64,000 bases of DNA from Blasia pusilla (GCA_050084515.1 CM114271.1:42718001-42782000), one strand, 5' to 3'; shown: positions 42,081 to 61,729, counted from the first letter of the stretch. Program-made: numbers and translations. Notes: generated from the letters alone by a model not told the origin.

Positions 42081-44005
42081 TGTCGTGCGCATATATATCG
42101 CTACACAACATACATCGCAGGTCACATCTACACCACACAACACCGATCTTCCCCACACACGGGTAGATCCACACATGTACAGAAATCAACTCATACATAT
42201 ACATGGAGATCACACAACGTAGTAAAAAACGGCACACCCGGCCTAAAACTCCACTCCTCAATCTACATCGGCATATCGAGCCTCGTCCACCCTACGCTAT
42301 CAAGGAATCCGGACGCTAGCACCCTAGTCCTATCTCACACACATACAAGAGAGGTGCTCCAAGGGCCCAACATGAGAAAGATGGCTTAGGAAATCCATCT
42401 TCCTCTCTTATATAGGGTTGAGAAGAACCAAAGGGCTCTTCCCCTCAAAATAGCCATCCCCTTGGTAACCTGCGCGCTCAGGTTACCAGGGGCGGGTGAC
42501 TTGGTCAACAAGTCATCCGGTTGTGAAAGACCTCAACATGAAAGTTGTGAGAAACGACGTTCCTGACACAATAGACCTATCCTCAACCTCATTCGACACC
42601 GTGGGACAAAGTTACACTCAAGATAGTCCGTTGGCTCCTACGCCCTATCCACGATAGATCTCGGGCTATCGGCTACTCAGATGTGACAGTTGTGGTACGC
42701 ATACATATCGCTACATAACATACATCGTTGGTCACATCTACACCACACAACACGGATAGATCCACACATGTACAGAAATCAACTCATACATATACATGGA
42801 GATCACACAATTGTCCCCCTAGCTGGAAGTTCGATTCCCCTAACTCCAGATAGAAAATATCACATCTCTTTGACATGGCCTACTACCCTATACACATCTC
42901 GGACACAGCCATCATCCCGTGGGAACTACATAAAAGGGGGGTTCCAGACATGACATATGCTACCCTCGAGAACAACCATCACATACCAATATGGTGGTTG
43001 CACCCCTCGCAGATCTCCACAACATACACCCCAAGCCTGTAAGTACCACTGCCAAGCTCGGATCCACTGTCCCGTCTACGTTCACAAGATGACATGGCGC
43101 ACAATTGCGCATATGATCCTTCCAAACCATACCATCCCGTCCCTCCAACATGAGGACTCCGGTCGGTAATACCTCACGCACACGAAGGATCGTGCGCCCT
43201 GCAGTGACATCTAGCGTCGTGGGTGCCGCCTGCTGTAAATACACGTAATCTCCAAGATAAAACCTCCTAATCCCTGGACGATAACCTCCTCCACGAATGG
43301 TTGCATACCTCAATGTATCTCTATGCTGAGCAATAGCTAAGTTCTCAAAGGCCAAAGGCATAACTCTACGAAAAATCTCCGCCCTCTGAGAACACGGTTG
43401 TATCCACACATCTGGATTATCAAGATCTAACACCTCCGCCATGTCACTCCGAATAGCTGCAAGTAAATCTGGCCTCTCTCCCAAAGAGCAAAAAGTATGG
43501 TGAAAATGATGCCAAGGATGCATGCCAACTAAAGCGATAACCCATAGCCAACCATGGCAATTGTAGGTCCCACTCCCTCAATTGTCCTCGCTGCAAGCCA
43601 TACTTGCGCAATCCTCTCTTCACCATCTGTACTACTCTCTCCGCCAACCCATCCACCTCAATATGATCTCTGGACGTGGTGCGGTGATCTATCAACGCCT
43701 GATCACACAAGGCCTAAAACTCTCCCCTGAACTCGGTACCCTGGTCAGTCAACACCTCCGCCGATGCACCAAAGTGACTAAGCACACGATCTAGAAACGA
43801 ATAAGCTATTCCCTTGCTCGCCTTGTCCAATAGTGCCACCAACTCTATCCACTTGGAGAAATGCTCCACCATGACCAACACATACCTGTGATGATGCCCC
43901 ATCAATGGCAAAGGTCCCGCAAAGTCTAAACTCCACCGATAACCTAAACCCATAATTGGCAAAGGATGTAATTGCGGAGTGGGAGCATTGAAGGGTTTAG
44001 TGGCA
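42081..44005 (-). mobile_element. 3' part of a second copy of the DNMT/PHD Ty3 family (integrase, PHD, PPT, A-B-A repeats)
   Basis: High nucleotide similarity to 59480-61411. A1 42691-42809, B 42219-42688, A2 42081-42216, terminus CGACA at 42081. Confidence 0.93.
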
Positions 44006-44049
44006 TGCCATACATCACATGCCATACATCTGGCATACATCATGCCATA

Positions 44050-47000
44050 CACTCGCCGCATCTAAGAACACTGCCGGGCCGATCCATGCGTGCAATTGAT
44101 GTGCACTCGTCACCACGCGGGACCTCTCATGTAAATGTTGCAAGATTCGCATCATCTCCCAAAACAACCTGGACCGAGTATCAGCTAACCCGCTATCTCG
44201 TCCCGCACTTGATTGGACCTGACACAGCCAACCAGCAATGACCAAGTCTATGGTCCCTACCCGCTCCAAGTCCTGCGTCCCCAACAATGAAATGTCCCTC
44301 AGTAGGGAACTCTGGTAACCCTGAATGGCGGATGCAGACAACAAGTCGGGAAAACGGAGGCGTAATAGCGACACATGGTGAAGTGAAGCGTGCCTTGCAA
44401 CATCATCAATCTCCACATATAGGTACTGCTACACACACACTCCAATGTGCAAAACAACAACTAATCCAATGCTGATCCCTCCAAAGAGATCCAACATCCG
44501 AATACCCTCCTCTGGGATGCACTACAAAATCGCGAGGGGGGGAGATGTCCAAAGGGGTCATAGCAGCACTCCTGCCTACCGGGGGTTCCTCTGACTCTAG
44601 TGCAAGCGTCTCGCTCCACGCGGTCTGCACATGCTTAGTGGCTAAGCGTCAAAGCTCCTCAGTCGAGCCCCAAAGCGGCACCTCTTTTCCACGGACTGAT
44701 GCGGCTTCCATGACACTCCTCTCCATAAAAATGCCAAGAAGGGGAGTATCCTCTACATGGACATGTCCCTCAATCAAATCACTAGGCCAAGTGATGGCAC
44801 TCCTAAATGCTGCTAAGGTCGCCATCTCTCTTGGCCGTCGCTCAATCACTACACCTGTGAATCGAACGGGTAATGAGCTAAGGCGCCCATCACTTGACTT
44901 CCATCCTGGTCTGTAAGATGCTGACTCCTCCCAGTAATTCAGGGAAAAACCCATCGGGTATAACACTGCTCCACCAACCAAGATGTCGTAGGACTCTACA
45001 TCAGTCACTATCGCCTTGGCTCGCACCACGGACGAATCTGTAGGATGTCCCAGGCGAATCCTCACCACGACCTCTTGTCGGGTGATATACTATGTGGTAC
45101 TCACTCCACCCAAGGATGTCTATATCCGGAATGGACAACGCTCCACATCGGCTCTCGTCAAGCCCAATCCTCTGAATGACGCTTTCCCCAACATCAGGGC
45201 TGCGCTCTTGAATCCAACAAGACGAGCTGCGGACTAAAAGCTCTATCTCCGGGACTGACCAACTGGAAGACCTCTCCTCGGTTATCCAGCAACACAACAC
45301 TAAGAGAAACCATGGCACCCTCTATCGTGGGTCTAGCGGGCATCTCTGCCATCCTAGCAGCCGCAGCCTGCCATGAATCTAACGTGGATGGCCCGAGCAT
45401 ATGCTCCAAGGGCATGTCCATCATCTCCTCTGCAATCACCTCTGAACGTGATGTTGAAAATCCAACTCCACGCTCACATAGCATAGCGGCCAGCCAAAAA
45501 ACCTCGACGGGCGTACCTCCCAACGTCACAACATCGGAAGAAGAAAATAAAGGAGCGTGGTACACAACAGTGGCTGCCCCCAACATCGTGCTTGACACAT
45601 GCCCCTCCTCAACATCAGAAATAGGAGTCGTCACACTCGCTTCTCCCATCGCCCTCCGTGCTTGGACACCAACAACATCACCAACTCTCCAGGAACTCTG
45701 ATCAGGACCCATTGATGACGTCCTCATCGGCTTGGACAACGTGAAAGATTGATGATGCCAAGTCTATTTCTTGGCTTCCCCTCACTATGGATCCAACTCT
45801 TCGGCTGCTCCACGCGTCACAACTATGGCGGCCTCCATCTAGGCAACCCCGCACATCCAACCAGGATCCTCCATATCTCTGGCTCCTCCATATGATGTCG
45901 ATGCCATGGATCCAACATCGGGTAATCTCAATGCCATAGCGGCAATCTGCTCCTGTAGCTGATGTATCTGAGCAGCCATCCTAGCCTCACGCTCAGCGTC
46001 TCCCTCGACGCGTCTAGGTGGTGGGACTCTACCTCCTCCACGGGCAGCTCCACCTCCTGTCGAGCAGCTCCAACTCCTCGTCCCCCAACGGGACCACCTG
46101 GTGCACAATCTCTAGGCCCACCCAGACCGGCTACTCGCTCTGATGCCCTCTCTAGCCCTCGGTCCGGACGTAACTCATGATGTAAACTAAAACACCTGGC
46201 GCATGTATGACCATACCTCTGACAATAGTCATACGGATAACCTCTTGGTGCATCACCATCTCCTCCTCCATGTTGAGGCACACGTTCATGACCCTGACGA
46301 GTGCAATCACGCTAATGATGGGCTCCACCACATGACCAACAAGTAATCGTAGGCGACTGTTGCTGAGCCGCATATGAAGGCGCAGGTCTCTGTGGCATGG
46401 CCTCTTGATATCCTCCCTGAGCTCTGGGTGCCACAATCAACCTATCTCGGAGTCCACGTTGCTGCACAGGTGGTGCAGACAATCGTGACTGCTCTCGCCC
46501 AAAACCCATGGAGGCTACGTTCTCCTCCACCACCTTGCGCTCAATATTCTCGGCGGTCTTAAAAACATCTCTCAATGTAGGGGAGGTGTTCATAAGAAGC
46601 ACCCCCTCCCGCACCCGTGTCCGTAGGGTCCTGTCCAGCATCGCGTACCATGACTGGATAGCTTGACCCTCTATCACCCCCTGAGTGACGTTGATCAACC
46701 GGCGCAAGCGTGTGTAAACCTCATGCAAACTCTCACCCGGGCGCCTCTCGAAGTCGTGGATGCTCCGCAACTTCTCCGTTCGTACCCCTTGGTAGCTCGC
46801 CCTCAACTCAGCGAAGAACTCAACCACGGGGTTGAACCTGAGACGAACCCGACTAGATGGTGCAACTGCTCTAGTGCGAGTGACCCTTCCTAAAATATCA
46901 CTTGTGGAAGAGGAAGTAGACTCTCCTGACTCCTCCTCCTCATCTAGGAATGGCTCCGTCCATGACATATAGTATGGATCATAATAGAGTCGCCATGCCT

Positions 47001-49444
47001 CAATCTCCTAGGCATATCTGTGGGAGAACTCATGGTAATCGTCCATGGGCGCCCCCTCTAAATGCTAGAACATACCATTTCATGTTGTAAACGGGTTAAA
47101 CTCTATAGAGTTCCTAACCCGTTGTGAGTCACACCAACTCCTAAACTCGGCAATGAAGTTGTGTAGCTCTATAGTGGTGCCTATAGCACCCAAAAACCTA
47201 CGCGGTCCTCTACCCCGGTTGTCCATCTTGTACGCCCAATTGGTAGGATCACTCATTGTGGATCACTAACACACTCCTCTACACACTCCTTCTCGTCTAA
47301 AGATGACCACAGAAAGAGATCGAGGTGGTCTCTCACGTGGAGACCCTCGAAACCTCGCACCACTCCGGGTAAACCTTCCAGATCTACTCTTAGGTCCACT
47401 ACCCCGCCTCTCAAAAGCTTGAAAGGACGCCGTGATGGCCCTCGTGCCCCTCTCACACGATCACTCTTAATCTCGCGAGTAATCCCTCAATCACTCAAAC
47501 TAAACATGCGGCACTCAATCTACACTCTCTCACTGAGACGTGTGCTATGCGGCAATAAGCAACGTGGTGCGGAAAATCACTGATCTATTGTCTCATCGAT
47601 AAACCATCCTCAACTTTGGACACCCCACACAGGTCTATGTCCCCTAAACCCATACATCATTGATGCTCCTAGCATCAATATAGGAACCCAATATCCCAAA
47701 TAACTTCCCAATACCCGGAAATCCCTCACACGTGCAAGGTAAGAGACTAGAATGGGTAACCTGACAATAATGTCGATGTCGCTCTTCGGCAACTGCAAAT
47801 CTCGACCCCAACTCGGTCATGAAGACAATCAGCAACACGTACTCCTCTCGTACTGACGCTGCTCAAACCTCATCGATGTGCGGTGTAGGTCCAGCGCTCC
47901 AATGCGGCATTGGCGGCACAGAATGGCTGCAAAGGGCACGACACTCGGGAATGGGGTGCGGCACGCGGCGGCATACCCTCCTCAATCAGAAATTCACATG
48001 CTTTGCTCCTTAGTGAAGGAGCGGCTCCGCGACCGAGACGATGCGGTGCGACCATGAGCGGCACGACGCAGCAATTGGCGATGCGTTGCGGCTACGGACA
48101 TCACGGCACGATCCTCGATCGTCGTCGAGTGGCTACCAATCACAACATAGCAGCATGAAATGAAAACTCAAACACCATAACCTGAGGTCATCTGCCATCA
48201 CTGGTTGATGAAAAAAATGCGATGACGGTGGCGACGCAAGTCAGAGAATCAACGGTCGTCGTAGAAGACCCTCCACTCCGTAATGGCGGCAATGGCAACC
48301 CAAGGATGGACAACGGACGAACGCGGCTCTCACCACCGCTATGCAGCGGCGGTGGCCGACGGTGGACGGTGGACCGTTGAGAATGAAAGTTGACCGTTGA
48401 TGGTGACGGCCGATTGTTGACGACGGACCGCCGATGGCAGACCGTTGACGGTGACTATGACGGCAACGATCACCGCTGTCGTGGCGGTTGGTTTAGGGTT
48501 TGAATAATTTAACCCTAAAAATTGCCTTGCAAGATTGAAAATAAATTTTTGGTCGTAACTCCAAATTGCGCACCTTCTATTGTACAGTGTGCACAGCTTC
48601 ACGATCTACAACGGCGTCAAAAATTATTTTGAATCGAACATTCCAATAAAAATTGATAGGGATTGTCGTAAAGCCCAATTCTCTTTCCCCTTCACAAAAT
48701 TTGGTAGCGCTTCCGCGCTGATTTCTCCCAAAAAAAATGTAAAAGCTGTGAAAATATAAATCAGCAAGCTACATGGTGCTTCCGAGAGCACCGGCACGGG
48801 GCAACCCGCCTCCATACTCAATCCCTATAAAAAATTGGGCAGTGCTTCCGCCCCACTTTTCCACACAAAAAATCACAAGTAAGCAACTTTTGCTCTTGTG
48901 AGCACTTCCATAAACTGCTGAACGGGGATACGATCTCCAACCTGCAAAACTAGCGAGTGACCACAGAGCTCCCCCACGAAGCTCTCTCACTCACTCATTC
49001 TCTCTTTGTAAAATAAGATCCAATATCTCTCACAACACCATAGTTCTCACATGTCTCTCTCAATGTCAAACCAAACCCACTCTCTTAATGAGAGGCTTGG
49101 GTTACACACACAAGGCAAGCAAGACCATAGCTCAGCCGCCTCATGCCAAGAGGTTCAACAAAGAGGGAATGAGCTCTCAAGCTCTCTCTCCTTGAGGTAT
49201 ACCCCTCCCCTCTCCCAAGCTCTCTCCATGGTAACCTATGCTTCCAAGTCACCTCCTTGGCTCTTGACCTGATGTAGGAGGTCAAGGGACACTTACCAAA
49301 AATATAAAGTCAATGATATACTCAAAATAGTATTGACCTAAAATAGTAAGTTCCTCAATATGGCTCCAAATGAGCCGAAATGAAGGGGAAACCTGCTCTG
49401 TCAAGTTTCCCAGGGCCTCAAGAGATCATCCTCCACCTATTGAG
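44050..49444 (-). mobile_element. 5' half of a diverged sister-family (Y) element: partial LTR, leader, gag, protease, N-half of DNA methyltransferase
   Basis: LTR end CA at 49007-49008 and primer site 48996-49006. gag from about 47226 (MDNRGRGPRRFLGAIG..., YQGVRTEKLRSIHDFERRPGESL, CWSCGGAH, CQRYGHTCARC), protease (LVLLDSRAQP, YDILVG), DNMT motif I (IRMLDLFGGISIG) and motif IV (LVIAGWLCQ). Multiple stops and frameshifts. Confidence 0.9.
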
Positions 49445-49871: not shown

Positions 49872-51733
49872 TGTCAAGTCTTTTAGGATAGATCGGTGAG
49901 ATCTAGTAGAGCGCCTTTGTGAGTACTAGAGGACAGGCTCAATAGGTCAAGGATGGCCTGTTGAGGCCCCGGGAAACCTGAGAGAGTAGGTTTCCCCTTC
50001 GTTTTGGCTCATTTGGAGCCATATTGAGGAACTTACTAATTTAGGTAAGTACCATTATGAATATATGATCGAGTTTATATTTTTGGTAAGTGGCACTTGA
50101 CCTCCTACATCAGGTCAAGAGCCAAGGAGGTGACTTGGGAGCATAGGTTACCATAGAGAGAGCTAAGGAGAAGGGAAGATTATACCTCAAGGAGAGAGAG
50201 CTTGAGAGCTCATTCTCTTTTTGTTCAACCTCTTGGCATAAGGCTGCGGAGCTATGGTCCCTTGCCTTATGAGTGTTACCCAAGTCTCTCATAGAGAGAG
50301 TGGGTTTGGTTTGACATTGAGAGAGACATGTGAGAGTGCACACATGTGAGAACTATGGTGTTGTGAGCGAGATTGGATCTTATTTTACAAAGAGAGAATG
50401 AATGAGTGAGAGAGCTTCATGGGGGAGCTCGCTCACTCACTCATTGCTTTGTTGGATTTTTATACGAGAGAGTGGCATGTGGAAGCGCTGCCCAATTTTT
50501 GATAGAAATTGAGTATGGGGAAAAATTACTCAATACCGGTGCTCTTGAGCACCATGTAGTTTTCTGATTTGTCTTCTCAAAGGTTTTACATTTTTGTTGG
50601 GAGCAATCAGCGCGGAAGTGCTGCTAAATTTTGTGTAGTAGAAAGACACGTTGGGCTTTACGACAATCCCTGTCAGTTCTTACAAGAATCTTTGATTCAA
50701 AATATTTTTTGACACCATTGTAGATCATGAAGCTTTGCACGCTATGCAGTAAATGATGCGTAATTTGGAGTTGCGAGCAAAAAGTTATGGTCAATCTTGC
50801 AAAACTGCCATTGCTAGGAAATTTTTAGAGTTAAATTGTTCAAACCCTAAACCAGCCGCCGCTGGCACGTCGGCTGTCGCCGTCATAGTCACCGTCAATG
50901 GTCCGATGTCACCATCAACAATCAACCATCACACTCAATGGTCCACCGTCCACCGTTGGCCACCGCCGCTGCCTAGCGATGTTGAGAGCCACGTTCGGCC
51001 GTTGTCCACCCTTTGGTTGCCATTGCCGCCATTACTGAGTGGAGGGTTCTCCACGACCACTGTTGATTCTCTGACTTGCGTCGCCACCACATACTTTGTT
51101 TTGGCCGCCACCGTCATCGCATTTTTGTTATCAACCAGTGATGGCAGGTGACCTCAGATTATGGTGTTTGAGTTTTCAATTCATGATGTTATGTTGTGAT
51201 TGCTAGCCGCTCGATGACGATCGAGTACCGTGCCGTGACGCCCGTAGCCGCAACGCGCCACTGATTACGGCGTTGTGCCGCTCGTGGCTGCACCGCATTG
51301 TCTCGATCGCGGAGTCGCTCCTTCACTAAGGAGGAGAGTGTGTGAATTGCTGATTGAGGAGGGTATGCCGCCGAGTGCGGCACCCCATTTTTGAGTGTCG
51401 TGCCGTTTGTAGCCGTTCCGTGCCGCCATTGTCGCACCGGATCATTGGACCTGCATCGCACATTGAGGAGGTTTGAGTAGCGTCAATACGAGAGGAGTAC
51501 GACTTCTTGATTGGAGGAGTTGTCTTCACGATCGAGTTGGGTCGAGATTTGGAGTTTCCGAGCAGCGATATCGACATTATTGTCAGGTTATCCATTGTAG
51601 TCTCTTACCCTGCACGTGTGAGGGATTCCCGGGTATTTGGAAGTTATTTGGGATATTGGGTTCTTGTGCTAATGCTAGGAGCATCAATGATGTATGGGTT
51701 TAGGGGACATAGACCTGTGTGGGATGTCCAGAG
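49872..51733 (+). mobile_element. LTR segment and leader of a second sister-family (Y) copy, interrupted by the 51734-61411 insertion
   Basis: Inverted homologue of about 47615-49444. Probable start TGTCA at 49872, LTR end TTTTACA at 50389, primer site 50390-50400. Confidence 0.85.
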
Positions 51734-52216
51734 TGTCACATCTGAGTAGCCGATAGGCCGAGATCTATCGTGGATAGGGCGTAGGAGCCAGCGGACTATC
51801 TTGAGTGTAACTTTGTCCCACAGTGTCGGATGAGGTTGAGGATAGGTCCATTGTGTCGGAACGTCGCGTTTTCGGCGACTTTCATGTTGAGGTCTTTTAC
51901 AGCCGGGTGACTTGTTGACCAGGTCACCTGCCCCTGGTAACCTTTGCGCGCAGGTTACCAAGGGAAGGGCTATTTTTAGGGGAAGAGCCTTTTGGCTCTT
52001 CCTAACCTATAAAAGAGAGGAAGATGGTTTTCCTAAGCCATCTTTCTCATGTTGGGCCGTTGGAGCACCTCCCTTGTATGTGTGTGAGCTAGGACTAGGG
52101 TGCTAGCGTCCGGATTCCTTGATAGCACAGGGTGGACGAGGCTCGATATGCCGATGTAGATTGAGGAGTGGAGTTTTAGGCCGGGTGTGCCGTTTTTACT
52201 ACTCTTTATTTTTACA
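51734..52216 (+). repeat. Terminal repeat B1 (promoter-containing LTR part, TGTCAC...TTTACA)
   Basis: Direct repeat of 60811-61289 with roughly ten differences, several of them CpG transitions. Confidence 0.95.
52008..52014 (+). promoter_or_regulatory. LTR TATA box
   Basis: TATAAAA 31 nt upstream of the inferred transcript start at 52039, also present in the other B copies. Confidence 0.75.
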
Positions 52217-52227
52217 TGAGAAAGATG
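52217..52227 (+). promoter_or_regulatory. Self-priming type primer-binding site
   Basis: TGAGAAAGATG directly after the LTR-terminal CA is the exact reverse complement of CATCTTTCTCA (52039-52049). It lacks the TGG start of a tRNA PBS. Confidence 0.85.
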
Positions 52228-55200
52228 TCAGGGGGCTAGTGGAAATTTGTTGTTTGCAGGTAGGCAAGCGAGTTGCCTTGGTCGGGAGCCCCTGGAGACG
52301 CGTGTGTGACGTTTTGTGTCATTTTTCTATTCGGAAGGCCGTGGGCGGAAGCGCTGTCTGTTTTTCTCAGATTTTGCTAGTGCGGATTGATGGGGGACAA
52401 CAGCCGAGTGTAGCGTGTGGTGGGGCGTCGGGTGTACGCAAGTGAGGGTGTCGAGAGAGAGAAGCAAAGGGCAGGTTTGGGTCTTGCAGCCGCCAGGGGG
52501 CTGTCAAGTAAAGGCGGCTAGGTTAGGTCGCGAAGTCTAGGGTTAGGTCACGGGCGAGGGACGGCGGACGGGCTGGGCGTGGACAGCAGACGGGCTGGGC
52601 GCGGACGGCAGACGGGCGCGGACAAGTAAGGGGCGTGGATAGGCGAGGGCCGCGGACGACAGAAGGACGCGGAGGGGCGCGGACACGCGGACGGGAGAGA
52701 ATGGAGGGGCAAGGGGCACCCCCTCACTCCGCGCATTTACAAGGGCCGCATAGGGCCGCGTGTCCTGCCCTCCCCCCAAACCTGGTGGCAGAGTGAGATT
52801 TTGCACGGAGATTATTTTGGAAGACCGAACTGACTGTCAGCAAGGTGGGTGAGTTACACCGACAGTTTGCGGGGGAGAGTTGACGATGGAGTATCTGTTG
52901 ACGGGAGGATCGACGTGTTGGTCGAGGGGAGTGTTATGTGGCGGAGATTGTCATATCATGTAGAGGAGTGCATATTGACGGTGCAGTCGGTTGGAGGGCG
53001 TGATCAGGTTACCCATTCGAGTCCCTTTTCCCGCACTTGTCGTGTGTGATTGAGAGTGCTAGGTATCGGGTAGTAGGTGGTGCTAGATGGGTGCAGTGAT
53101 GGTGACGAGTGTAGATTCTTTTCATGTGTAGCATGTTGGTGGATATACGGCGGTTGCCGAGTAGGGGTCGCGTGTATGACCCGAGAGAGTGTCGCTAGGT
53201 TAGGTGAGTCAGTTGGGAGGCTCATGGTGAGCCCGAGTGTTGAGCGTGCGTGAGGCCTGGTATGTCATCACGGGATTGACGTTAGCATAGGTGAGCTAGT
53301 GAGGCGTGTGGGAGACTCTCGGTGAGTCTGAGTGCTTGAGCGGGTGAGACAGGGTTTGTCATCACGGCGTTCTTCCAGGGTTCGGAAGAACGGGGTAGTG
53401 CGAGCAGTGGTAGTGGTGTGCCACGGAGTGGAGTGAGATATCGAGGGATTACCAGTGAGGAGCTCCCTCGATATCCATCCGTGACTGGATCGTCATCACT
53501 GGACACTGGGTCTGGTGACGAGATCACCGACAGAGACACTAGTACTTGGCAGGAGATGGACGACATGGGCCATGGGGGCATGCGTCGTTTCTCGGGTGCA
53601 GTGGGCACCATCGACTTAGATGATTTCATCCGGGAGTTCGACACATGGTGCGACTTCCAGGAGATAGGGACCCCGACACGATTCAACCCTTTCATGGCAT
53701 GGAAGGGGTTGTTCCAGCACTTGGAGGGTCCTCCGATGGATGACTACATGGAGTTTCAATCACTATACTCAGTAGAGATCGATGCCTGGAGGATGTATTG
53801 GGCTCCAGGGTATGTGTCCACTAGTGGTCGCGAGGCATATGATGGGATTGTGAGAGGAGAGAGACCCACACCATCAGCCCGGAGACTAGATGGAGAGGAG
53901 GGTGGAGACAAAGCGATGTGGCAGAGACATCTGGTGGTAGAGGGCCACCCAGCTTCAGCCCCACAGTGGAGTTCTTCCGACAGTTGGGGAAGAGCTACCA
54001 GGGCGTACGCACCGACAAGCTCAAGAGTCTACAAGATTTTCAGCAACGATCGGGTGAGAGTATGAGAGAGGCATTCACACGCATGAGGAGGCTGATCATT
54101 GCTACGTTTGGAGTGACTGAGGCGCAGTCAGTCTAGTATTGGTACGGGGTTCTGGACCGAGAACTACGGAGGAGAGTCCGAGATGCGGTCTTTGATTCAC
54201 AAAGAAAGCCCACATTGAAGGTGGTCTTTGAGTTGTCTGAGCGTATTGAGCTCAACATGAGTGAGGAGCAGGTAGTGACCGCTGGATTTTCTCGAGAGTC
54301 AACGGGTCCACGAGCAGCGGTGACCCCACAGGTGCCACAGCGAGCACCAATACCACGGGAACGGGCCAGTGTGCCTAGAGAGCAAGGCGGGTACCATGAG
54401 CCTATGAGGCAACGACCCGCACCTACATATGTTGCCCAGTAGGGACTGATGTGGTCTTGTTGGACGTGTGGAGGGGCCCATAGGCAGAGGCGCCCACAAA
54501 GCATGGGGAGAGGACCACCAGCGCCTCCGATTGCTCAAGAGCCATAGAGGATGGCCCCACCACAGCACCAGTGTGACCATTGCCACAGATATGGTCATAC
54601 TAGGGATAGATGTTTTGACCTTCGACGAGGGGCACGTCGAGAGGTAGGCCAAGGGCCTGGGGGCGGTCGTCCTGGAGGAGGTTAGGGAGATCTTCCTGGA
54701 CGTGGTGGTAGAGGACCACCACTAGCCAGAGGAGATGGAGCAGGAGCACCAGAGCCGGCGCTTCTCTCACGCATCGATAAGTTGGAGCGGAGGATTGCCG
54801 CCATGACGATGATGCGGCTTAGGAAGGCCTGAGCTGCGGCGGCTAGTGTGACTCAGTCTCTACCTCTTACCCCGACCGGGTGAGGATCTCTCAAATATGG
54901 GATTCATGTGTAGTGCAGCCTAGGTTGAGGCGGTGCGGTGGTGACTGGGTCTGCGAGAGGCACCGAGCCATCGAGAGGTGGAGTTGAGATTGACCCACCA
55001 GAGGGGACCGATGGGCGGCAGGCCAGGGTTCCACAGTCGTTCACATTGTCGGAGGCACTACACACACCATCGATGGTGCCTCGACGACTAGCGGTGCCTA
55101 CAGTTCAGGCACCTACGTCGACGTCACGAGGAGTTGGAGTGACAACTCCTATGCCGGCTCGAGTGGAGTCAGCGTCGACCATAGTGTTGGAGGTGGCCAC

Positions 55201-56269
55201 TAGAGTGAGTCAGACTCCACTATTTTCCGCCATAGAGTTGGCGACGTTGGGAGATGGACCAGCTGAGGTGTTTCGGTTGGCCGTCATATTGTGTGAGCGT
55301 GGAGAGGTGACTGCTTATTGTTCAGAGGTAGTTGAGGAGGTGGTGGACTTGCCCTCAGAGCCGGTGCTTGGGATGTTCCCCACAGAGTCATGGCATGCGG
55401 CGGCGGTGAAGTTGGTAGATATGCCAGCTCGACCGGCCATAAAGCGAGCTGTGGTGACTCCTTGAGTAGTGTTTCTGGATAACCGAGCTGGAGTATTTCG
55501 CTTGGTTAGTCCGACGGGGACAGTATACCACCCGTAGCACGTCCTACTTGATTGCGGAGCGCAACCCTTGATGTTAGGGAAGGCGGCGTGTTTAGCGTTG
55601 GGGTTACGGAAGGCCGACATTGAGCCTTGTCCCTTCCAGATACAGACCTCGATTGGGGGCGTATCACCCACTCAGTATATGGCTCGACAGGAGATTGTTG
55701 TCAGAGTCCAGCCAGAGCATGCGACGGATAGTGCTATGGTGCGTACACGTGCGATTATGACACCAGCTGAGTCGTACGATGTGTTGGTGGGGAGTACAGT
55801 GTTATATCCCCTAGGATTCATCCTTGACTTCTGGGAGGAGACCATTGCTTATCGGCCAGGATGGCGGTCAGGTGACGGTCGGATGAGTCAGTTACCCATG
55901 CAGTTTGCGGGACGAGGTGGTCGATCACGAGGCGAGTCTGTGACCAGGTTGGCGGCTTTCACAGGTAGTGTTAGCTGGCCAAGAGAGTTGTTGGAGGGGA
56001 ACGCACATGCGGAGGATGTCCCAGTAGCCGATAGTCCCACGGAGAGACAGGCCATGGCGGGTGTCTCTTCCCATGTTAGCGATGCCTCTTCACCATTATG
56101 GGGTACGACTCGAGAGCTACAGAGGAGTGCCGACGATCTCGTGAGGCAGGCGTGGAGTCATGTTTTTATCCCAGAGCAGCGAGAGTCACGTGGCGATCGG
56201 GCTCTTGGAGTGGAGACGATGACCCCACTAGATACCACACCTGTTGTGTGGCAGTGCCCAGAGGAGGGT

Positions 56270-57215
56270 GTTAGGATGTTAGATCTCTTCGGAGGGATTA
56301 GCATCGGATTGGCTGCAGTATTGCAGGCGGGCATACGGGTGCATCAGTACCTTTATGTGGAGAGAGATGAGACCGTGCGGCGAGTATCATTACGTCACGT
56401 GGCGAGATTGGTCCAGAGGTATCCTGAGTTGTTGTCGGTATTTGCAGTACGGGGATACCAGCATATGCTACCCGCCGACATATCTTTGGTGGGGGCGCAG
56501 GATCTGGATAGAGTTGGCACCATTCATTTGGTGATTGCTGGATGGCCATGTCAGGGTCATTCATCAGCTGGCCGAGGATTTGGATTGCAAGATCCGAGGT
56601 CAGGGATGTTTTGGGAGATACTGCGAGTAGTATGACACTTGCAGGAGAGTCAGATATGTTCTCTAGTGTACATTTTGGAGAACGTGCCGTTGTTGGGAGA
56701 TACTCGTGCATGTGTGATGACGAGTGTACATCAGGTGAGGTCCTGGTTGGGACATGCTGTGTTGTTAGATGCAGCGAGAGTTGGGTCATGTGCCCATCGT
56801 CCACGACTGTGGTGGACGAACCTGATACCATCAGAGGTACTGAGTCGAGCCTACAGTGGAGTCCAGAGAGCACCACATCTCACAGTGGATGCTATTTTAG
56901 GCTCAGCGCGTCGATCTCAGGTGGTGACACGGGATGATAGACCATCGTTGGCCATGGCCAATAGGGTGGGGAAGTTGAGGGCAGCCTTACCTACGTTGGT
57001 GAGCTTCCCAGCATCCCATGCCTTTTGTCAGGGAGGGCCAGGCATGATTTAGGATGAGGTGACCGGAGTATTGGAGGAGCCTACAGCAGATGAGCGCGAG
57101 CGCGCCATGGGGTTCACTACCGGTACTACGGCGGTGCTAGGGATGATTTAGGCATCACGGAGACAAGTGTTGGGGCAGGCGATGGACCTCAACTGTCTCA
57201 CATGGATAGTCAGCC
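56270..57215 (+). pseudogene. DNMT3-like C5 cytosine methyltransferase domain inside pol
   Basis: Motif I VRMLDLFGGI, II YLYVERD, III ADI, IV LVIAGWPCQGHS (catalytic PC), VI YILENVP, VIII SCAHRPRLWWTN, IX ERERAMGF, X RRQVLGQAMDLN. Same frame as the protease, no introns, three in-frame stops (about 56633, 57050, 57149). Confidence 0.95.
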
Positions 57216-60200
57216 TAGGTATGGCTGAGCAGAGACGGATGCGAGTGTCATCCATGCCGTCACGTCCACGAGTTGGACCATTGCCTACAGGGTCTGTACA
57301 TGCATTGGCTGGGGGCGAGACGAGGAGAGATAGGCACCCATGGACTTCCTGGGACGTCGTTCGAGCAGAGAGTGCAAAGGCGGCTAGAGTAGCACATGTT
57401 CATTTTTCGGATGTGGAGCATGGTGTAGGAGGTCAGAGTGGAGTGGTTGTTGCGGAGGTGGCTAGGATTGCTACATAGCAACCAAAGCCGGAGGTTGCGT
57501 CCTCTCCGAGTGAGGTCACGATGGAGACTTGGGAGCCTGTGATAGGTCTCAAGTTGATAGGAGGAGAGCGACGGCGAGTTCATAGGTTTTAGAGAGGGTA
57601 TGTCAGTTGTTTTGCCTTCAGTATGAGAGACTTGGGTACGCTGAAGGGTCCCGGGATACGGATTGAGTTGGCTAGTGATATGCCGATCTTTGTCGACCCC
57701 TGGTATTTCGATATGGAGCGAGCCTTGATTTGAGCGAGAGTCGGGACTTGTTGGAGGCGGGACTTGTGGAGTTATCACATGGGGAGTATGCATATGCCGA
57801 GTCATGCCAAAGAAAGAAGGATATGTATGGCAATTGGACGGATAGGCGGATGTGTGGAGATTACCGTCCTATCAACCCGTGACGAGGTCGATCGGTATGC
57901 CATGCCTACTCTGAGGAGATCTTTGATGCGGTAGGGCATGCAAAGATCTTCATGACTTTAGATCTCCGTCTTTGGCTATCATCAACTTCCTATCAGGTTG
58001 GAGGACAGGAGAAGACATCGATTCAGGGGATAGATCGGTTCGGGAGAGATTGCTTGTATCGAGTGGCGGTTCTTACCATTTGGGTTGAAGAACGCGCTCA
58101 TGGAGTTTCGAGAGAGTAATGGATAGGATTTTGGCTGGCTTGGATTTTTACGATGTTACATAGATGATATTCTTATCTTGATTCCACGGTTGAGGAGCAT
58201 GAGCGACACTTGGAGGAGGTGTTTGGCGATTGCGATTACATGGACTGAAGTTACATCCAGCAAGTGCAGATTCTTTCAGAGCAGATTGAGTACTTGGGAC
58301 ACACCATATACCCGAGTGGGTTAGGCGTTCAGCAGACGAAGGTAGAGGCTATTGCGCAGATTCCACGCCCCTGGATGTGAGTCGAGTCCGAGCATTTCTT
58401 GGGTGGCGAACTTCTATCGACGGTATGTCAAGGGTTTTAGTGCGATCGCAAAGTCTTTGACCTTGTTGACGAGACTTGATCGGTGTGGTTGTGGGGAGAT
58501 GCTCAGGAGCGAGCATTTCAGAGCTCAGGGACAGTTGACGTCCTCACCCATTTTGAGAGACCGGTTAGGGGTCGCCCATTCCAGTTACATACGGATTGGA
58601 GCATGTTGGGTCTAGGAGCATTGCTTACTCAGAGGGATGACGAGGAGAGGGAGTTCGTTGTGGCTCACGCGAGCTGATCGAACAACATTGCAAAGGTGAA
58701 GTAGAGCTCCTACGAGGGAAAGTGCTTGCTTGGCTGCAGTCTGGGCCATGGCACATTTTAGGTGCTATTTATTCGGCAACCCTTTCACACTTATCACTGA
58801 TCATCAGCCGTTGAGGTGGTTGATGGAGTCCGACAAGCTTAGGGGAAAGCTTGCCAGGTGGGCTCTATTACTACAGGAGTATGAGTTCGAGGTGGTTCAT
58901 AGGCCAGGTCGGCTGAACCAGGATGCGGATGGGTTGAGTCGTAACCCATGTCCGAGTTAGAGAGACGACACAGGAGCTCGATGGCACGGAGAGAGTGATG
59001 AAGAGATGGTGCCCTGTTGGCATGCATCTGCCTATCTTTGTTGGTTGACTATGGCAGGTCAGCCACAGGTGATGACTCCAGTGGTGGGATTGGATGATAA
59101 GTCTTTGGATCCGGAGGTTAGTGAGGAGGCGACAGGTGGTCGTGATATCCATGACGACGTAGAGGTTGTGGAGTTCTTGCGCACTGGCGTCATTGCGAGT
59201 ACAGTGAGTGCTAGGGAGCGGGATCGGATCCTACAGAGAGCCAAGAGGTTCAGGTGGGAGGGGACTCACATTTTACGGGTATGGGGAGATGGTAGGATAC
59301 GAGTGGTACCTCATCCTTCCCAGCGAGCACGTGTAGTGAGACATGCCCATGAGGAGTTGGGACATTTTGGAGTAAAGCGTACTTACAGCTTACTTCAGGT
59401 TCAGTATTGGTGGCGCGGCATGCCCTCTTGGGGGCATAGTAGATTTGTGGCGGATGTATGGTATATGACAGAGTGCGAGCATCCTTCAATGCTCCCACTC
59501 CGTAGTTACATCCTTTGCCGATTATGGGTTTAGGTTATTGGTGGAGTTTAGACTTTGCGGGACCTTTGCCATTGACATTGACAGGACGTCATCATAGGTA
59601 CGTGTTGGTCATGGTGGAGCATTTCTCCAAGTGGATAGAGTTGGTGGCACTACCAGACAAGGCGAGCGAGGGAACAACTTATGCGTTTCTAGATCGTGTG
59701 CTTAGTCACTTTGGTGCACCGGCGGAGGTGTTGACTAACCAGGGTACCGAGTTCAGGGGAGAGTTTCAGGCCTTGTGTGATCAGGCGCTGATAGATCACC
59801 GCACCACGTCCAGGGATCATCCTGAGGCGGATGGATTGGCGGAGAAAGTGGTACAGACGGTGAAGAGAGGATTGCGCAAGTATGGCTTGCAGCGGGGATA
59901 GTTGAGGGAGTGGGACCTACAGTTGCCATGGTTGGCTATGGGTTATCGCTTTAGTCGGCAGGCATCCTTGGCGTCATTTTCACCGTACTTTTTGCTCTTT
60001 GGGAGAGAGCAGATTTTACTGCAGCGATTCGACGTGACATGGCGGAGGTGTTAGATCTTGATGATCCAGATGTGTGGGTGCAAGCATGTTCTCAGAGGGC
60101 AGAAGTTTTTTGTAGAGTTATGCCTATGGCCTTTGAGAACTTAGTTATTGCCCAACATAGAGATACATTGAGGTACGCGACCATTCGTGGAGGAGGTTAT

Positions 60201-60452
60201 CGTCCAGGGATTACGAGGTTTCATCCTGGAGATTACGTGTATTTATAGCAAGCGGTACCCACGATGCTAGATGTCACTATAGGGCGTACGATCCTACGTG
60301 TGCGCGAGGTATTACCGACCGGAGTCCTCATGTTGGAGGGACGGGATGGTTTGGTTTGGAAGGATCATGTGCGCAATTGTGCGCCATGTCATCTTCTGAA
60401 CGTAGATGGGACGGTCGATCCGAGCTTGGCAGTGGTACCTGCAGGCTTGAGG

Positions 60453-60588
60453 TGTATGTTGTGCGGATCTGCGAGGGGTGCAGCCACCATGTTGGTATGT
60501 GATGGTTGTTCTCGAGGGTGGCATATGTCATGTCTGACCCCCCCCTCTTGATGTGGTTCCCACGGGACGATGGATGTGTCCGAGATGT
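60453..60588 (+). other. PHD finger (C4HC3) at the integrase C-terminus
   Basis: CMLCGSARGAATMLVCDGCSRGWHMSCLTPP/LDVVPTGRWMCPRC, with one +1 frameshift in a C run. Confidence 0.93.
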
Positions 60589-60661
60589 GTATAGGGTAGT
60601 AGGTCATGTCAGAGAGATGTGATATTTTCTATCTGGAGTTAGGGGGATCCAACTGCCAGCT

Positions 60662-60672
60662 AGGGGGGCGGT
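60662..60672 (+). promoter_or_regulatory. Polypurine tract
   Basis: AGGGGGGCGGT immediately before TGTGTG (start of repeat A1). Equivalent tracts at about 42813-42820 and 29173-29182 on the minus strand. Confidence 0.8.
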
Positions 60673-61411
60673 TGTGTGATCTCCATGTATATGTATGAGT
60701 TGATTTTTGTACATGTGTGGATCGACCCGTGTGTGGGGAAGATCGGTGTTGTGTGGTGTAGATGTGACGAGCGATGTATGTTGTGTAGCGATATGTATGC
60801 GCACGACAGCTGTCACATCTGAGTAGCCGATAGGCCGAGATCTATCGTGGATAGGGCGTAGGAGCCAGCGGACTATCTTGAGTGTAACTTTGTCCCACAG
60901 TGTCGGATGAGGTTGAGGATAGGTCCATGGTGTCAAGAACGTCGTTTCTGATGACTTTCATGTTGAGGTCTTTTACAGTCGGGTGACTTGTTGACCAGGT
61001 CACCTGCCCCTGGTAACCTTTGCGTGCAGGTTACCAAGGGAAGGGCTATTTTTAGGGGAAGAGCCTTTTGGCTCTTCCTAACCTATAAAAGAGAGGAAGA
61101 TGGTTTTCCTAAGCCATCTTTCTCATGTTGGGCCGTTGGAGCACCTCCCTTGTATGTGTGTGAGCTAGGACTAGGGTGCTAGCGTCCGGATTCCTTGATA
61201 GCACAGGGTGGACGAGGCTCGATATGCCAATGTAGATTGAGGAGTGGAGTTTTAGGCCGGGTGTGCCGTTTTTACTACTCTTTATTTTTGTTGTGTGATC
61301 TCCATGTATATGTATGAGTTGATTTTTGTACATGTGTGGGGAAGATCGATGTTGTGTGGTGTAGATGTGACGAGGGATGTATGTTGTGTAGCGATATGTA
61401 TGCGCACGACA
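60673..61411 (+). repeat. 3' terminal repeat block A1-gc-B2-gt-A2
   Basis: A1 60673-60808 (136 bp), GC, B2 60811-61289, GT, A2 61292-61411 (120 bp, with a 16-bp deletion between tgtgtgg microrepeats). Confidence 0.95.
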
Positions 61412-61725: not shown

Positions 61726-61729
61726 CTCT

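What the first reader, a model, noticed from the sequence alone, without database searches (positions are those of the whole stretch)
55540..57480. LTR retrotransposon encoding its own DNMT3-like cytosine methyltransferase between protease and RT
Seen: a full unpermuted C5-MTase motif series (I DLFGG, IV GWPCQ, VI ENV, VIII HRPRLWW, IX ERERAMGF, X RRQVLG) lies intron-free and in frame with the protease in a TSD-flanked Ty3/Gypsy element. Established: HRPRLWWTN, ERERAMGF and RRQVLG resemble DNMT3 (HRARYFWGN, EMERVFGF, RQRLLG), and the order differs from permuted plant DRM. DNMT-carrying retrotransposons have been reported in dinoflagellates and, as Ty3-DNMT3, in the charophyte Klebsormidium. 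I do not recall a description in a land plant. Inference: the enzyme would be packaged with Pol and could methylate new cDNA or the target site, for self-camouflage or self-regulation. This copy has three stops but retains the catalytic PC.
Basis: partly seen in the sequence, partly recalled or inferred. Interest (0 to 1): 0.95.

Follow-up and report, generated by a model that had tools for sequence, protein, structure and literature searches.

The report
Dead methyltransferase-carrying retrotransposon in a liverwort-like plant
This is a decayed copy of a jumping gene that carries its own DNA-methylating enzyme, a kind first described in a freshwater alga in 2018 and shown here to be common in liverworts and mosses too.

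Summary
Window 56240-57250 encodes an unpermuted C5 cytosine methyltransferase, in frame with the protease and broken by three stops. It passes Pfam PF00145, and DNMT3A/B/C are its nearest solved relatives by sequence, profile and fold.

It sits in a 9,678-bp mobile unit (51734-61411) ordered gag-PR-DNMT-RT-RNaseH-integrase-PHD. A 4-bp target duplication and an uninterrupted paralogue in the same window fix the boundaries.

The terminal repeats are not two plain LTRs. They are arranged A-coding-B-A-B, the arrangement de Mendoza et al. 2018 report for KnitGypsy-Dnmt3 of Klebsormidium.

This copy is dead: 12 in-frame stops and at least 11 frame changes.

The host is a land plant. A multi-exon pullulanase gene in the window is 69% identical to that of Marchantia.

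The family is large. Unannotated relatives occur in Marchantia, Calypogeia, Sphagnum, Scenedesmus and many metagenome contigs. The DNMT is as constrained as the RT (omega about 0.35).

I call it a new member of a known kind. Its presence in land plants appears in no paper I could search. What the enzyme does, for example methylate the element's own cDNA, remains inference.

The parts
51730..51733 (+). 5' target-site duplication AGAG
   Evidence: The same 4 bases follow the element at 61412-61415. An uninterrupted paralogue at 47570-47660(-) has one copy, AAAG.
51734..52213 (+). Repeat A1 (5' terminal repeat, starts TGTCA)
   Evidence: 97.5% identical over 481 columns to A2 at 60811-61289. The differences are 9 substitutions, 8 of them transitions, plus 3 indels.
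53556..54600 (+). gag with CCHC knuckles; one frameshift and several stops
   Evidence: tblastn of the Marchantia protein P0002: aa 1-92 map to 53556-53825 in one frame and aa 122 onward to 53918 onward in another. The CCHC-like strings are visible in the translation. The 3' limit is approximate.
55440..55900 (+). Aspartic protease region (LLDCGAQ)
   Evidence: Aligns to the protease part of P0021 (PF13650 at aa 663-711) and of P0006. No Pfam hit on the window copy itself.
56240..57250 (+). DNMT3-like C5 cytosine methyltransferase domain, three in-frame stops
   Evidence: PF00145 at 39.3 bits. Motifs I-X and the stops are located. DNMT3A/B are the best PDB matches. 63-70% identical to liverwort and unnamed relatives.
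57515..58480 (+). Reverse transcriptase, broken by repeated frameshifts
   Evidence: Ungapped tblastn pieces of P0006 and P0021 RT lie in alternating frames. The fragments themselves give no Pfam hit.
58558..58972 (+). RNase H
   Evidence: PF17917 at E 3.3e-18 on 58703-58882; tblastn.
59315..59823 (+). Integrase: H2C2 zinc domain and DDE core (rve)
   Evidence: PF17921 at E 3e-10 (59315-59422) and PF00665 at E 8e-13 (59536-59823).
60453..60548 (+). PHD finger at the integrase C-terminus (truncated by a stop and a frameshift)
   Evidence: PF00628 at E 6.1e-7, covering 32 of 47 profile positions. A full PHD is present in the intact relative P0021.
60662..60670 (+). Polypurine tract-like run (AGGGGGGCG) directly before B1
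   Evidence: The same G-run lies directly before B1 in window copy 2 and in loci L044, L047 and L052.
60671..60808 (+). Repeat B1 (ends CGACA), followed by the 2-nt spacer GC
   Evidence: 87% identical to B2. The junction reads ...CGACA-GC-TGTCA....
60811..61289 (+). Repeat A2
   Evidence: Pairs with A1.
61290..61411 (+). Repeat B2, the 3' terminus of the mobile unit (ends CGACA)
   Evidence: Abuts A2 without a spacer and is followed by the AGAG duplication. The flank then continues the paralogue's sequence.
42081..47229 (-). Second, deleted and chimeric family copy: gag, PR, N-terminal half of DNMT, then integrase-PHD and B-A-B
   Evidence: tblastn. B lies at 42691-42810 and 42081-42217, A at 42219-42688. 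The integrase-PHD part is 91% identical in DNA to copy 1, but gag/PR/DNMT only about 67%.
49872..51733 (+). 5' part of a third related element, into which copy 1 inserted (it continues at 61412-61724)
   Evidence: Both flanks of copy 1 are contiguous in the paralogue at 47998-47305(-). It starts with TGTCA at 49872.

Best explanation
The finding is a dead copy of a Gypsy-DNMT3 retrotransposon. This is an integrase-type, Ty3/Gypsy-ordered element (gag-PR-DNMT-RT-RNaseH-INT-PHD) that carries a DNMT3-like cytosine methyltransferase inside its Pol polyprotein. Its ends are split direct repeats, A-coding-B-A-B. It lies nested in another family member in the genome of a liverwort-like land plant.

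Shown here: the domain identities and their order; the element's boundaries and 4-bp target duplication; that the layout recurs in independent elements; that the DNMT evolves under purifying selection as strong as that on the RT; and that family members are transcribed in sense at a low level.

Inferred: in active copies the DNMT is translated as part of Pol. It therefore sits where the cDNA is made and most likely methylates the element's own new DNA, or the DNA at its landing site, de novo. The PHD finger fused to the integrase probably reads the unmodified histone H3 tail and steers integration away from active promoters.

Also inferred, from the polypurine tract before B1 and from the B1-2 nt-A2 junction that joins the two termini: reverse transcription may produce B-A long terminal repeats. 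The integrase would then use the internal ...CGACA-NN-TGTCA... junction of an end-joined (two-repeat circle) intermediate. This would yield the integrated order A-coding-B-A-B.
For: - DNMT identity: PF00145 at 39.3 bits. A profile of 16 family members against PDB gives DNMT3A 3.2e-26, DNMT3B/3C about 1e-24, DRM 1e-16, M.HhaI 7e-11 and DNMT2 3e-8. An AlphaFold model of P0207, a 69%-identical intact relative, has pLDDT 89.8. All listed Foldseek PDB matches (ranks 1-49) are DNMT3A/B/C, with E 7e-19 and target TM about 0.83.
- Element: RNase H, H2C2, rve and PHD Pfam hits. PR, RT and gag are placed by tblastn to relatives.
- Boundaries: the flanks of 51734-61411 are contiguous in a paralogue, and the duplication is AGAG.
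- Layout: A-coding-B-A-B with TGTCA...CGACA termini, a G-rich polypurine run before B1 and a 2-nt B1/A2 spacer occurs in window copy 1, window copy 2 (3' end only) and loci L044, L047 and L052. All 4 of 4 complete elements have 4-bp duplications: AGAG, AAGG, GGTC, CCAA.
- Published match: PMC5890265 describes 'A-coding region-B-A-B', and states that KnitGypsy-Dnmt3 has DIRS-like repeats with Gypsy domains.
- Family size: 221 representative clusters at E<=1e-30 and 741 at E<=1e-10. 327 of 600 metagenome stretches encode relatives.
- Domain order: PR-DNMT-RT-RH-INT-PHD in 9 of 9 loci checked.
- Selection: in 257 pairs with dS 0.05-1.5 the median omega is 0.356, and 211 of 257 are below 0.5. In 88 pairs with dS 0.1-0.3 the median omega is 0.34 for DNMT and 0.38 for RT. 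Motif residues are invariant across 33-69%-identical members.
- RNA: 3 of 3 RNA runs give low coverage whose strand flips with the orientation of the two copies. The reads include a diverged expressed copy across motif IV.
- PHD: the best solved relatives are KDM5/Lid PHD1 (6.7e-16), PHF12, CHD4, KAT6A, DPF3, BAZ2A/B, PHF21A, AIRE and UHRF1. From my own knowledge, these are mostly readers of the unmodified H3 tail.
Against: - This copy cannot make any protein: 12 stops between 54137 and 57151 and at least 11 frame changes.
- Most relatives are dead too. Only 6 of 80 metagenome loci have a DNMT stretch free of stops.
- The closest pairs (dS below 0.1) have DNMT omega 0.71 against RT 0.41 in 11 pairs, and roughly 0.5 to 1.1. 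This fits decay after insertion, but it also means selection is seen only on deeper branches.
- Most RNA reads are only 95-99% alike, and 54-62% of them run on into unlike sequence. They therefore come from other copies, and depth over the DNMT bins is at most 1.2.
- No assay of activity, substrate or packaging was possible here.
- No primer-binding site was identified after A1, and no circular or linear intermediate was observed, so the replication model is conjecture.
- No Klebsormidium sequence surfaced in any search, so kinship with KnitGypsy-Dnmt3 rests on shared architecture alone.
- CpG observed/expected in the element (0.78) is not lower than in its surroundings, so there is no sequence footprint of unusual self-methylation.
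Confidence: 0.85

Rival explanations
1. The DNMT does not methylate the element's own cDNA. It might methylate RNA. It might act on host chromatin around the insertion to dampen harm and so favour persistence. Or it might be a structural or targeting module working with the PHD finger.
For: No activity data exist for this clade. PMC5890265 reports that one retrotransposon DNMT class did not methylate DNA in yeast and discusses RNA methylation (discussion passage). The element's CpG content shows no special depletion. A histone-reading PHD is always co-present in full-length relatives.
Against: The catalytic PC, ENV and the DNA-methyltransferase motifs VIII-X are conserved across the family. 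The fold matches DNA-bound DNMT3 structures best. DNMT2, an RNA enzyme, is a far weaker match at 3e-8.
Confidence: 0.25
2. The methyltransferase is a chance capture or nested insertion of a host DNMT3 pseudogene, confined to this locus.
For: The copy is dead, and the region is a nest of transposons.
Against: The same domain in the same position occurs in 9 of 9 independent loci checked, in Marchantia, Calypogeia and Sphagnum proteins, and in a second copy in this window. It is under purifying selection.
Confidence: 0.02
3. It is a DIRS-like tyrosine-recombinase element, as the A-coding-B-A-B repeats would suggest.
For: The repeat layout is the one typical of DIRS-type elements (PMC5890265 figure legend).
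Against: A DDE integrase core and an H2C2 zinc domain are present, and no tyrosine recombinase was found. Termini are TG...CA, and 4 of 4 complete elements have 4-bp target duplications.
Confidence: 0.02
4. The host is a charophyte alga in which this family is already described, so nothing new is added.
For: The family was first described in Klebsormidium nitens.
Against: The window's 27-piece pullulanase gene is 69% identical to that of Marchantia polymorpha and 64% to Riccia fluitans; these two are 75% identical to each other. The nearest element relatives are from liverworts. No identical or near-identical Klebsormidium protein appeared.
Confidence: 0.03

Closest known systems
KnitGypsy-Dnmt3 of Klebsormidium nitens (de Mendoza et al. 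2018, Nat Commun 9:1341, PMC5890265; passages read)
   Same: An intron-free DNMT3-type domain inside the Pol ORF of an element with Gypsy domain composition. The repeats are arranged as in DIRS elements (A-coding-B-A-B). The DNMT is under purifying selection. The host is a streptophyte.
   Different: The host here is a liverwort-like land plant. I could not compare sequences or domain order with the Klebsormidium copies, because the figures and supplements are not held and no K. nitens protein surfaced. The paper reports Ka/Ks below 0.2; I measured a median of about 0.35 among mostly dead copies. The paper infers acquisition in the K. nitens lineage, whereas relatives here span liverworts, Sphagnum and a chlorophyte.
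Animal DNMT3A/3B/3C catalytic domains (PDB 6F57, 2QRV, 6U8P, 8TCI and others)
   Same: Best sequence, profile and fold matches. Motif order is unpermuted. The target-recognition region between motifs VIII and IX is short.
   Different: About 20-24% identity. There are no PWWP or ADD domains. The domain is embedded between protease and RT in a polyprotein. The partner interfaces (DNMT3L-type) were not examined.
Plant DRM2 / NtDRM (PDB 7L4C, 4ONJ)
   Same: DNMT3-derived plant de novo methyltransferases, and the second-best family in the profile search (E 1e-16 to 9e-15).
   Different: DRM motifs are circularly permuted, so only the N-terminal half of the profile aligns. The element's domain is unpermuted.
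Canonical Ty3/Gypsy elements, including chromoviruses
   Same: The order PR-RT-RNaseH-INT, an H2C2 plus DDE integrase, TG...CA termini, a short target duplication, a polypurine tract, and a chromatin-reader domain at the integrase C-terminus.
   Different: There is an extra DNMT domain. The terminal repeats are split (A...B-A-B) rather than two identical LTRs. No tRNA-type primer site was recognised.
SymbioDIRS-Dnmt3 and DIRS/Ngaro/PAT-type elements
   Same: A-coding-B-A-B repeats; a DNMT3-type (Symbiodinium) or adenine methyltransferase inside Pol.
   Different: Those use a tyrosine recombinase and make no target duplication. This element has a DDE integrase and 4-bp duplications.
Related polyproteins with the order RT-RNaseH-DNMT-INT-PHD (e.g. 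'pol' of Scenedesmus sp. PABB004, P0033)
   Same: A homologous DNMT (36-41% identity), the same integrase and a C-terminal PHD.
   Different: The DNMT lies after RNase H instead of before RT, in 4 of 4 checked. They form a separate clade in the DNMT tree, with support 97/97.

Membership tests
C5 cytosine DNA methyltransferase (Pfam PF00145) | Score above the Pfam gathering threshold | tested here: met
   39.3 bits against a cut-off of 22, E 7.1e-10.
C5 cytosine DNA methyltransferase (Pfam PF00145) | Motifs I, IV (catalytic PC), VI (ENV), VIII, IX and X present | tested here: met
   Located; conserved across 16 family members.
C5 cytosine DNA methyltransferase (Pfam PF00145) | Open reading frame able to give an enzyme | tested here: not met
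   Stops at 56633, 57050 and 57149. This copy is a pseudogene.
DNMT3 subfamily | Closer to DNMT3 catalytic domains than to other C5 methyltransferase families | tested here: met
   Among solved structures only: the profile gives DNMT3A 3.2e-26, DRM 1e-16, M.HhaI 7e-11 and DNMT2 3e-8. Foldseek ranks 1-49 are all DNMT3A/B/C.
DNMT3 subfamily | Unpermuted motif order (as opposed to DRM) | tested here: met
   The order along the frame is I, IV, VI, VIII, IX, X.
DNMT3 subfamily | N-terminal PWWP and/or ADD reader domains | tested here: not met
   Pfam finds neither in the window polyprotein pieces nor in the intact relative P0021. The neighbours are protease and RT.
DNMT3 subfamily | Placement inside the DNMT3 clade in a tree with host DNMT3, DRM, CMT, MET1, DNMT1/5 and bacterial enzymes | not testable with these tools
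   No reference sequences of those families could be drawn from the tools. The tree holds only element-type sequences.
Ty3/Gypsy LTR retrotransposon | Pol order PR-RT-RNaseH-INT with a DDE integrase | tested here: met
Ty3/Gypsy LTR retrotransposon | Short target-site duplication and TG...CA termini | tested here: met
   AGAG duplication, TGTCA...CGACA termini, and an empty-site paralogue. 4 of 4 complete elements have 4-bp duplications.
Ty3/Gypsy LTR retrotransposon | Two complete, identical long terminal repeats | tested here: not met
   The 5' end has A only; the 3' end has B-A-B.
Ty3/Gypsy LTR retrotransposon | Polypurine tract before the 3' repeat | tested here: met
   A G-rich purine run lies directly before B1 in 5 of 5 elements looked at.
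Ty3/Gypsy LTR retrotransposon | tRNA-complementary primer-binding site after the 5' repeat | not tested
   The sequence after A1 was read and shows no TGG start. No tRNA comparison was run.
Ty3/Gypsy LTR retrotransposon | RT groups with Ty3/Gypsy RTs in a tree | not tested
   Only Pfam domain types typical of this group were seen (PF17917, PF17919, PF17921).
Gypsy-DNMT3 (KnitGypsy-Dnmt3 type) | DNMT3-type domain within the Pol ORF, without introns | tested here: met
Gypsy-DNMT3 (KnitGypsy-Dnmt3 type) | DIRS-like repeat arrangement (A-coding-B-A-B) with Gypsy domains | tested here: met
   against the figure legends of PMC5890265.
Gypsy-DNMT3 (KnitGypsy-Dnmt3 type) | [quoted passage not shown] | tested here: met
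   Median omega 0.356 over 257 pairs; 0.34 against RT 0.38 over 88 pairs. This is weaker than the published figure of below 0.2.
Gypsy-DNMT3 (KnitGypsy-Dnmt3 type) | Sequence kinship (DNMT and RT) with the Klebsormidium copies | not testable with these tools
   No K. nitens protein appeared. The paper's figures are not held and its supplements were not opened.
DIRS-like tyrosine-recombinase retrotransposons | Tyrosine recombinase and no target duplication | tested here: not met
   A DDE integrase was found and no recombinase; 4-bp duplications are present.

The most novel reading that the evidence does not exclude
Gypsy-DNMT3 is not a Klebsormidium curiosity. It is an old lineage spanning the green plants, from a chlorophyte to liverworts and peat mosses, that couples three features: a DNMT3-type writer, an integrase-fused PHD reader of the unmodified H3 tail, and split terminal repeats whose internal B-NN-A junction is the integrase's substrate. 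It is still transcribed, and in places still intact, in land plants. If so, de novo methyltransferase activity in bryophyte genomes is partly transposon-encoded. The published inference of an acquisition within the K. nitens lineage would give way to one early capture followed by a domain shuffle (PR-DNMT-RT against RT-RH-DNMT-INT).
Probability: 0.3. Interest if true: 0.7.

Novelty: new member of a known kind. Interest (0 to 1): 0.45.

Why it matters
Transposons are usually the targets of DNA methylation, so one that carries the writer itself is a rare inversion of that relationship. The one experimental study of such elements covers algae only.

This work shows that the same kind of element is abundant in liverworts and mosses. 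These include the genetic model Marchantia polymorpha, where long gag-PR-DNMT reading frames are annotated. That makes the open question testable in a tractable land plant: what does a transposon gain from methylating DNA?

The recurring A-coding-B-A-B layout, combined with a DDE integrase and 4-bp duplications, also poses a concrete and unsolved replication problem.

For genome annotation there is a practical warning. Bryophyte 'DNMT3-like' gene counts will be inflated by these elements.

Tried and rejected
- The window's own genome is not held, so no genome-wide count of intact copies or ages was possible.
- The look-up of sequencing runs listed no holder on record as RNA. I therefore laid three RNA raw-read runs of the same coded species label.
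- The protein Atlas look-up gave only generic C5-methylase clusters, one of them Streptophyta. It added nothing.
- Pfam found nothing on the gag, protease and RT fragments of the window copy. These parts rest on tblastn to relatives.
- P0249 (Marchantia, 533 aa) was considered as a host DNMT3 outgroup. Only about 100 residues match the family profile, and it was left out of the tree.
- Rows matching under 200 profile positions were also dropped from the tree: P0010, P0226, P0029, P0243 and P0249.
- CpG and CWG depletion gave no clear signal.
- The first self-comparison failed because the whole-window self-hit swallowed the repeats. It was redone in 1-kb chunks.
- The three-domain omega control left only 8 loci and 7 pairs. 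It was redone with DNMT and RT only.
- I looked by eye for a tRNA-type primer site after A1 and saw none; this was not pursued.
- Literature: six searches found no bryophyte or land-plant description. Subscription-only papers and supplements are outside what I could see. The supplementary trees of PMC12344493 and PMC5890265 may already include bryophyte copies.

Full report
OBSERVATION

The stretch 55538-57478 is one open frame on the + strand apart from three internal stops: TGA at 56633, TAG at 57050 and TAG at 57149. The stop-masked translation passes Pfam's own threshold for PF00145, at 39.3 bits against 22 and E 7.1e-10. Among PDB sequences its best matches are the catalytic domains of DNMT3A and DNMT3B (E 1.7e-6), ahead of bacterial M.HaeIII and M.HhaI at about 2e-3.

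IS IT DNMT3-LIKE?

I built a profile from the window domain and 15 relatives and searched PDB with it:
- DNMT3A 3.2e-26
- DNMT3B/3C about 1e-24
- the permuted plant DRMs 1e-16 to 9e-15, with only the N-terminal half aligned
- M.HhaI 7e-11
- DNMT2 3e-8

An AlphaFold model of the 69%-identical intact relative P0207 is confident (pLDDT 89.8, pTM 0.88). All Foldseek PDB matches listed, ranks 1 to 49, are DNMT3A/B/C, with best E 7.3e-19 and target TM about 0.83.

The domain has no PWWP or ADD partner; its neighbours are protease and RT. I could not place it in a tree with host DNMT3, DRM, CMT and MET1, because no such reference sequences can be drawn from the tools.

THE ELEMENT

tblastn with related polyproteins, plus Pfam, gives the order gag (53556 onward), protease, DNMT (56240-57250), RT, RNase H (PF17917), integrase H2C2 (PF17921), DDE core (PF00665) and a C-terminal PHD finger (PF00628).

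The terminal repeats are not two plain LTRs:
- Repeat A occurs at 51734-52213 and at 60811-61289, 97.5% identical.
- A second repeat, B, occurs at 60671-60808 and at 61290-61411.
- The layout is therefore A1-coding-B1-A2-B2.
- B1 and A2 are separated by two bases (GC); A2 and B2 abut directly.
- A G-rich purine run lies directly before B1.

The mobile unit is 51734-61411 (9,678 bp), with termini TGTCA...CGACA. This is shown by an empty site. The sequence left of 51734 and the sequence right of 61411 are contiguous in a paralogue at 47998-47305 on the other strand. Four bases (AGAG) are duplicated at the two ends.

STATE OF THIS COPY

It is dead.
- Besides the three stops in the DNMT there are nine in the same frame in 54137-55537 and a frameshift in gag.
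- There are at least ten frame changes between 57709 and 60588, eight of them in RT and RNase H.
- The A repeats differ by only nine substitutions, eight of them transitions, and three indels.
- So either the source copy was already defective and was moved by others, or some of the indels are assembly errors. I cannot tell which.

SURROUNDINGS

- Copy 1 is nested in the 5' part of a third related element (49872-51733 and 61412-61724).
- A second family copy lies on the minus strand at 42081-47229. It has gag, protease and the N-terminal half of the DNMT, then jumps to integrase-PHD and B-A-B.
- In that second copy the integrase-PHD part is 91% identical in DNA to copy 1, but gag, PR and DNMT are only about 67% identical. 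It is a chimera or a deletion product of two subfamilies.
- A further integrase-PHD fragment lies at 29366-30730.

HOST

The window holds a pullulanase (limit dextrinase) gene in at least 27 aligned pieces at 11329-24694.
- It is 69% identical to the Marchantia polymorpha protein and 64% to that of Riccia fluitans.
- Those two are 75% identical to each other.
- The word-based search found only these plant proteins, 3 hits among 9 candidates.

The host is thus a land plant nearest to liverworts, but not the genus Marchantia and not Klebsormidium. This rests on one gene.

THE FAMILY

- Searches with the DNMT stretch found 58 long and 74 mid-length relatives. The best named ones are 'hypothetical' or 'unnamed' proteins of Calypogeia fissa (69%), Marchantia polymorpha (up to 67% over the full stretch), three Sphagnum species, and a 'pol' of Scenedesmus.
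- The exhaustive search counted 3,582 representative clusters at E<=1e-3, 741 at E<=1e-10 and 221 at E<=1e-30.
- In a maximum-likelihood tree of 42 DNMT domains the window copy sits in a supported clade of 18 (100/99) with the ten Marchantia rows, Calypogeia and unnamed sequences.
- All 9 of 9 metagenome loci examined have the order PR-DNMT-RT-RH-INT-PHD.
- Four of four more distant polyproteins, including the Scenedesmus one, have RT-RH-DNMT-INT-PHD. These form their own clade, with support 97/97.
- The A-coding-B-A-B layout recurs in L044, L047 and L052, which span DNMT identities of about 40% to 64% to the window. They share the same TGTCA...CGACA termini, the purine run before B1 and the 2-nt B1/A2 spacer.
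- All four complete elements have 4-bp duplications: AGAG, AAGG, GGTC, CCAA.

SELECTION

- Only 6 of 80 loci have a stop-free DNMT stretch, so most copies are dead, as usual for transposons.
- Pairwise Nei-Gojobori estimates on 38 sequences (37 loci with three or fewer stops, plus the window) gave 257 of 703 pairs with dS between 0.05 and 1.5. Their median omega is 0.356, and 211 of 257 are below 0.5.
- The closest pairs (dS near 0.05) range from about 0.5 to 1.1, as expected for decay after insertion.
- Window against the nearest loci gives dN about 0.25 with saturated dS.
- As a control, in the 24 of 80 loci where both domains were usable, 88 pairs with dS 0.1-0.3 have median omega 0.34 for the DNMT and 0.38 for the RT. 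Eleven pairs with dS below 0.1 have 0.71 and 0.41.
- The DNMT has therefore been kept by selection about as strongly as the RT along the active lineages.

EXPRESSION

Three RNA raw-read runs carrying the same coded species label as the best DNA holder were laid on 42001-62000.
- 385, 484 and 441 reads were laid.
- Over copy 1 the first mate lies mostly on the minus strand; over the minus-strand copy 2 it lies mostly on the plus strand. Under the usual stranded-library convention this means sense RNA for both.
- Depth is low: 0 to 1.2 in the DNMT bins, and up to about 6 over RNase H and integrase.
- Only 27 or 28 reads per run are 99% or more alike, and 54-62% run on into unlike sequence. The reads come from other family members, not demonstrably from this copy.
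- Seventeen to 21 reads in two runs match only 56526-56560 (motif IV) and continue into a different family member.

This shows family-level transcription and nothing more.

HOW IT LIKELY WORKS

Shown: the enzyme is encoded inside Pol, is conserved, and belongs to an element that integrates with a DDE integrase.

Inferred:
- As part of Pol, the DNMT is present where cDNA is made and methylates the new DNA or the landing site. This is the hypothesis already published for these elements (PMC5890265 abstract and discussion).
- The integrase-fused PHD finger of the intact relative P0021 is most like KDM5/Lid PHD1, PHF12, CHD4, KAT6A, DPF3, BAZ2A/B, PHF21A, AIRE and UHRF1. From my own knowledge these are mostly readers of the unmodified H3 tail. 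I therefore expect integration to be steered to chromatin lacking H3K4 methylation.
- The repeat anatomy suggests a replication route. A purine tract before B1 and a primer site after A1 would give B-NN-A long terminal repeats by ordinary reverse transcription.
- Joining of the two ends would create the spacer-free A|B joint.
- Cleavage by integrase at one internal ...CGACA-NN-TGTCA... junction would then give exactly A-coding-B-NN-A-B with TG...CA ends.
- Only that product keeps a promoter-bearing A upstream and a full B-NN-A downstream for the next round.
- I give this model about one chance in four. No intermediate was seen and no primer site was identified.

COMPARISON WITH WHAT IS KNOWN

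De Mendoza et al. 2018 (PMC5890265; abstract and passages read, figures not held, supplements not opened) describe KnitGypsy-Dnmt3 of Klebsormidium nitens. [quoted passage not shown] The window element meets each of these architectural features, so I file it under that kind.

[quoted passage not shown] Neither names bryophytes in the text I could see.

Six full-text searches found no description in a liverwort, moss or other land plant. Passages of PMC6453930, PMC11982613, PMC10952607 and PMC9940879 were read and are silent on it. Subscription-only papers and supplements could still hold it.

VERDICT

The sequence call is right and well supported. The element is a new member of a known kind, not a new kind.

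What is added:
- a land-plant host
- evidence that the family is large, old and split into two domain orders
- a precise anatomy of the split repeats with 4-bp duplications
- a constraint on the DNMT equal to that on the RT

What the enzyme does for the element remains untested.

Noticed in passing
window 11329-24694 (+): A complete-looking plant pullulanase (limit dextrinase) gene in at least 27 aligned exon pieces. It is 69% identical to the Marchantia polymorpha protein and 64% to that of Riccia fluitans.
   Followed up: yes
window 47305-47998 (-) against 51341-51733 and 61412-61724 (+): An uninterrupted paralogue of copy 1's insertion site lies 4 kb away in inverted orientation. The two related 5' regions (47305-49444 and 49938-51733) face each other head to head.
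   Followed up: partly
window 61409 joined to 49874: In all three RNA runs, 15, 52 and 17 reads join the end of repeat B to the TGTCA start at about 49872, with six other bases between. These are probably B-A junction transcripts of another subfamily copy elsewhere in the genome.
   Followed up: no
window 48671-49337: This is the highest RNA depth of the laid 20 kb (5.6 to 20.9, first mate on +), with fixed differences from the window. It is an expressed repeat or gene fragment of unknown nature.
   Followed up: no
window 51729 joined to 61412 in DNA run X1: One DNA contig (depth 11.4) skips the 9,682 bases of copy 1. This is either an allele or strain without the insertion, or a close paralogue of the target.
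   Followed up: no
window 61821-63800 (-): Another Gypsy-type element lies on the minus strand (RT-like ORF 61821-62234, protease-like ORF 63414-63650). It shows only 30% identity to the RT of the DNMT family. No DNMT was seen in the part inside the window.
   Followed up: no
window 5116-7289 (-): ORFs with strings typical of a non-LTR (LINE-type) reverse transcriptase, in a GC-rich block (GC 0.54-0.55).
   Followed up: no
P0033, P0027, P0031, P0050 (proteins): A sister group of polyproteins carries the homologous DNMT after RNase H rather than before RT. The domain has therefore moved within Pol at least once.
   Followed up: partly
P0223: A family member is labelled by its source as a DNA cytosine methyltransferase of a bacterial metagenome-assembled genome (Candidatus Obscuribacterales). 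In the tree it is nearly identical to loci L032 and L033, which carry the full retrotransposon. This is probably a mis-binned eukaryotic contig.
   Followed up: partly
window 26538-26975 (-): A 145-residue acidic open frame that looks like a long exon of an unidentified host gene.
   Followed up: no
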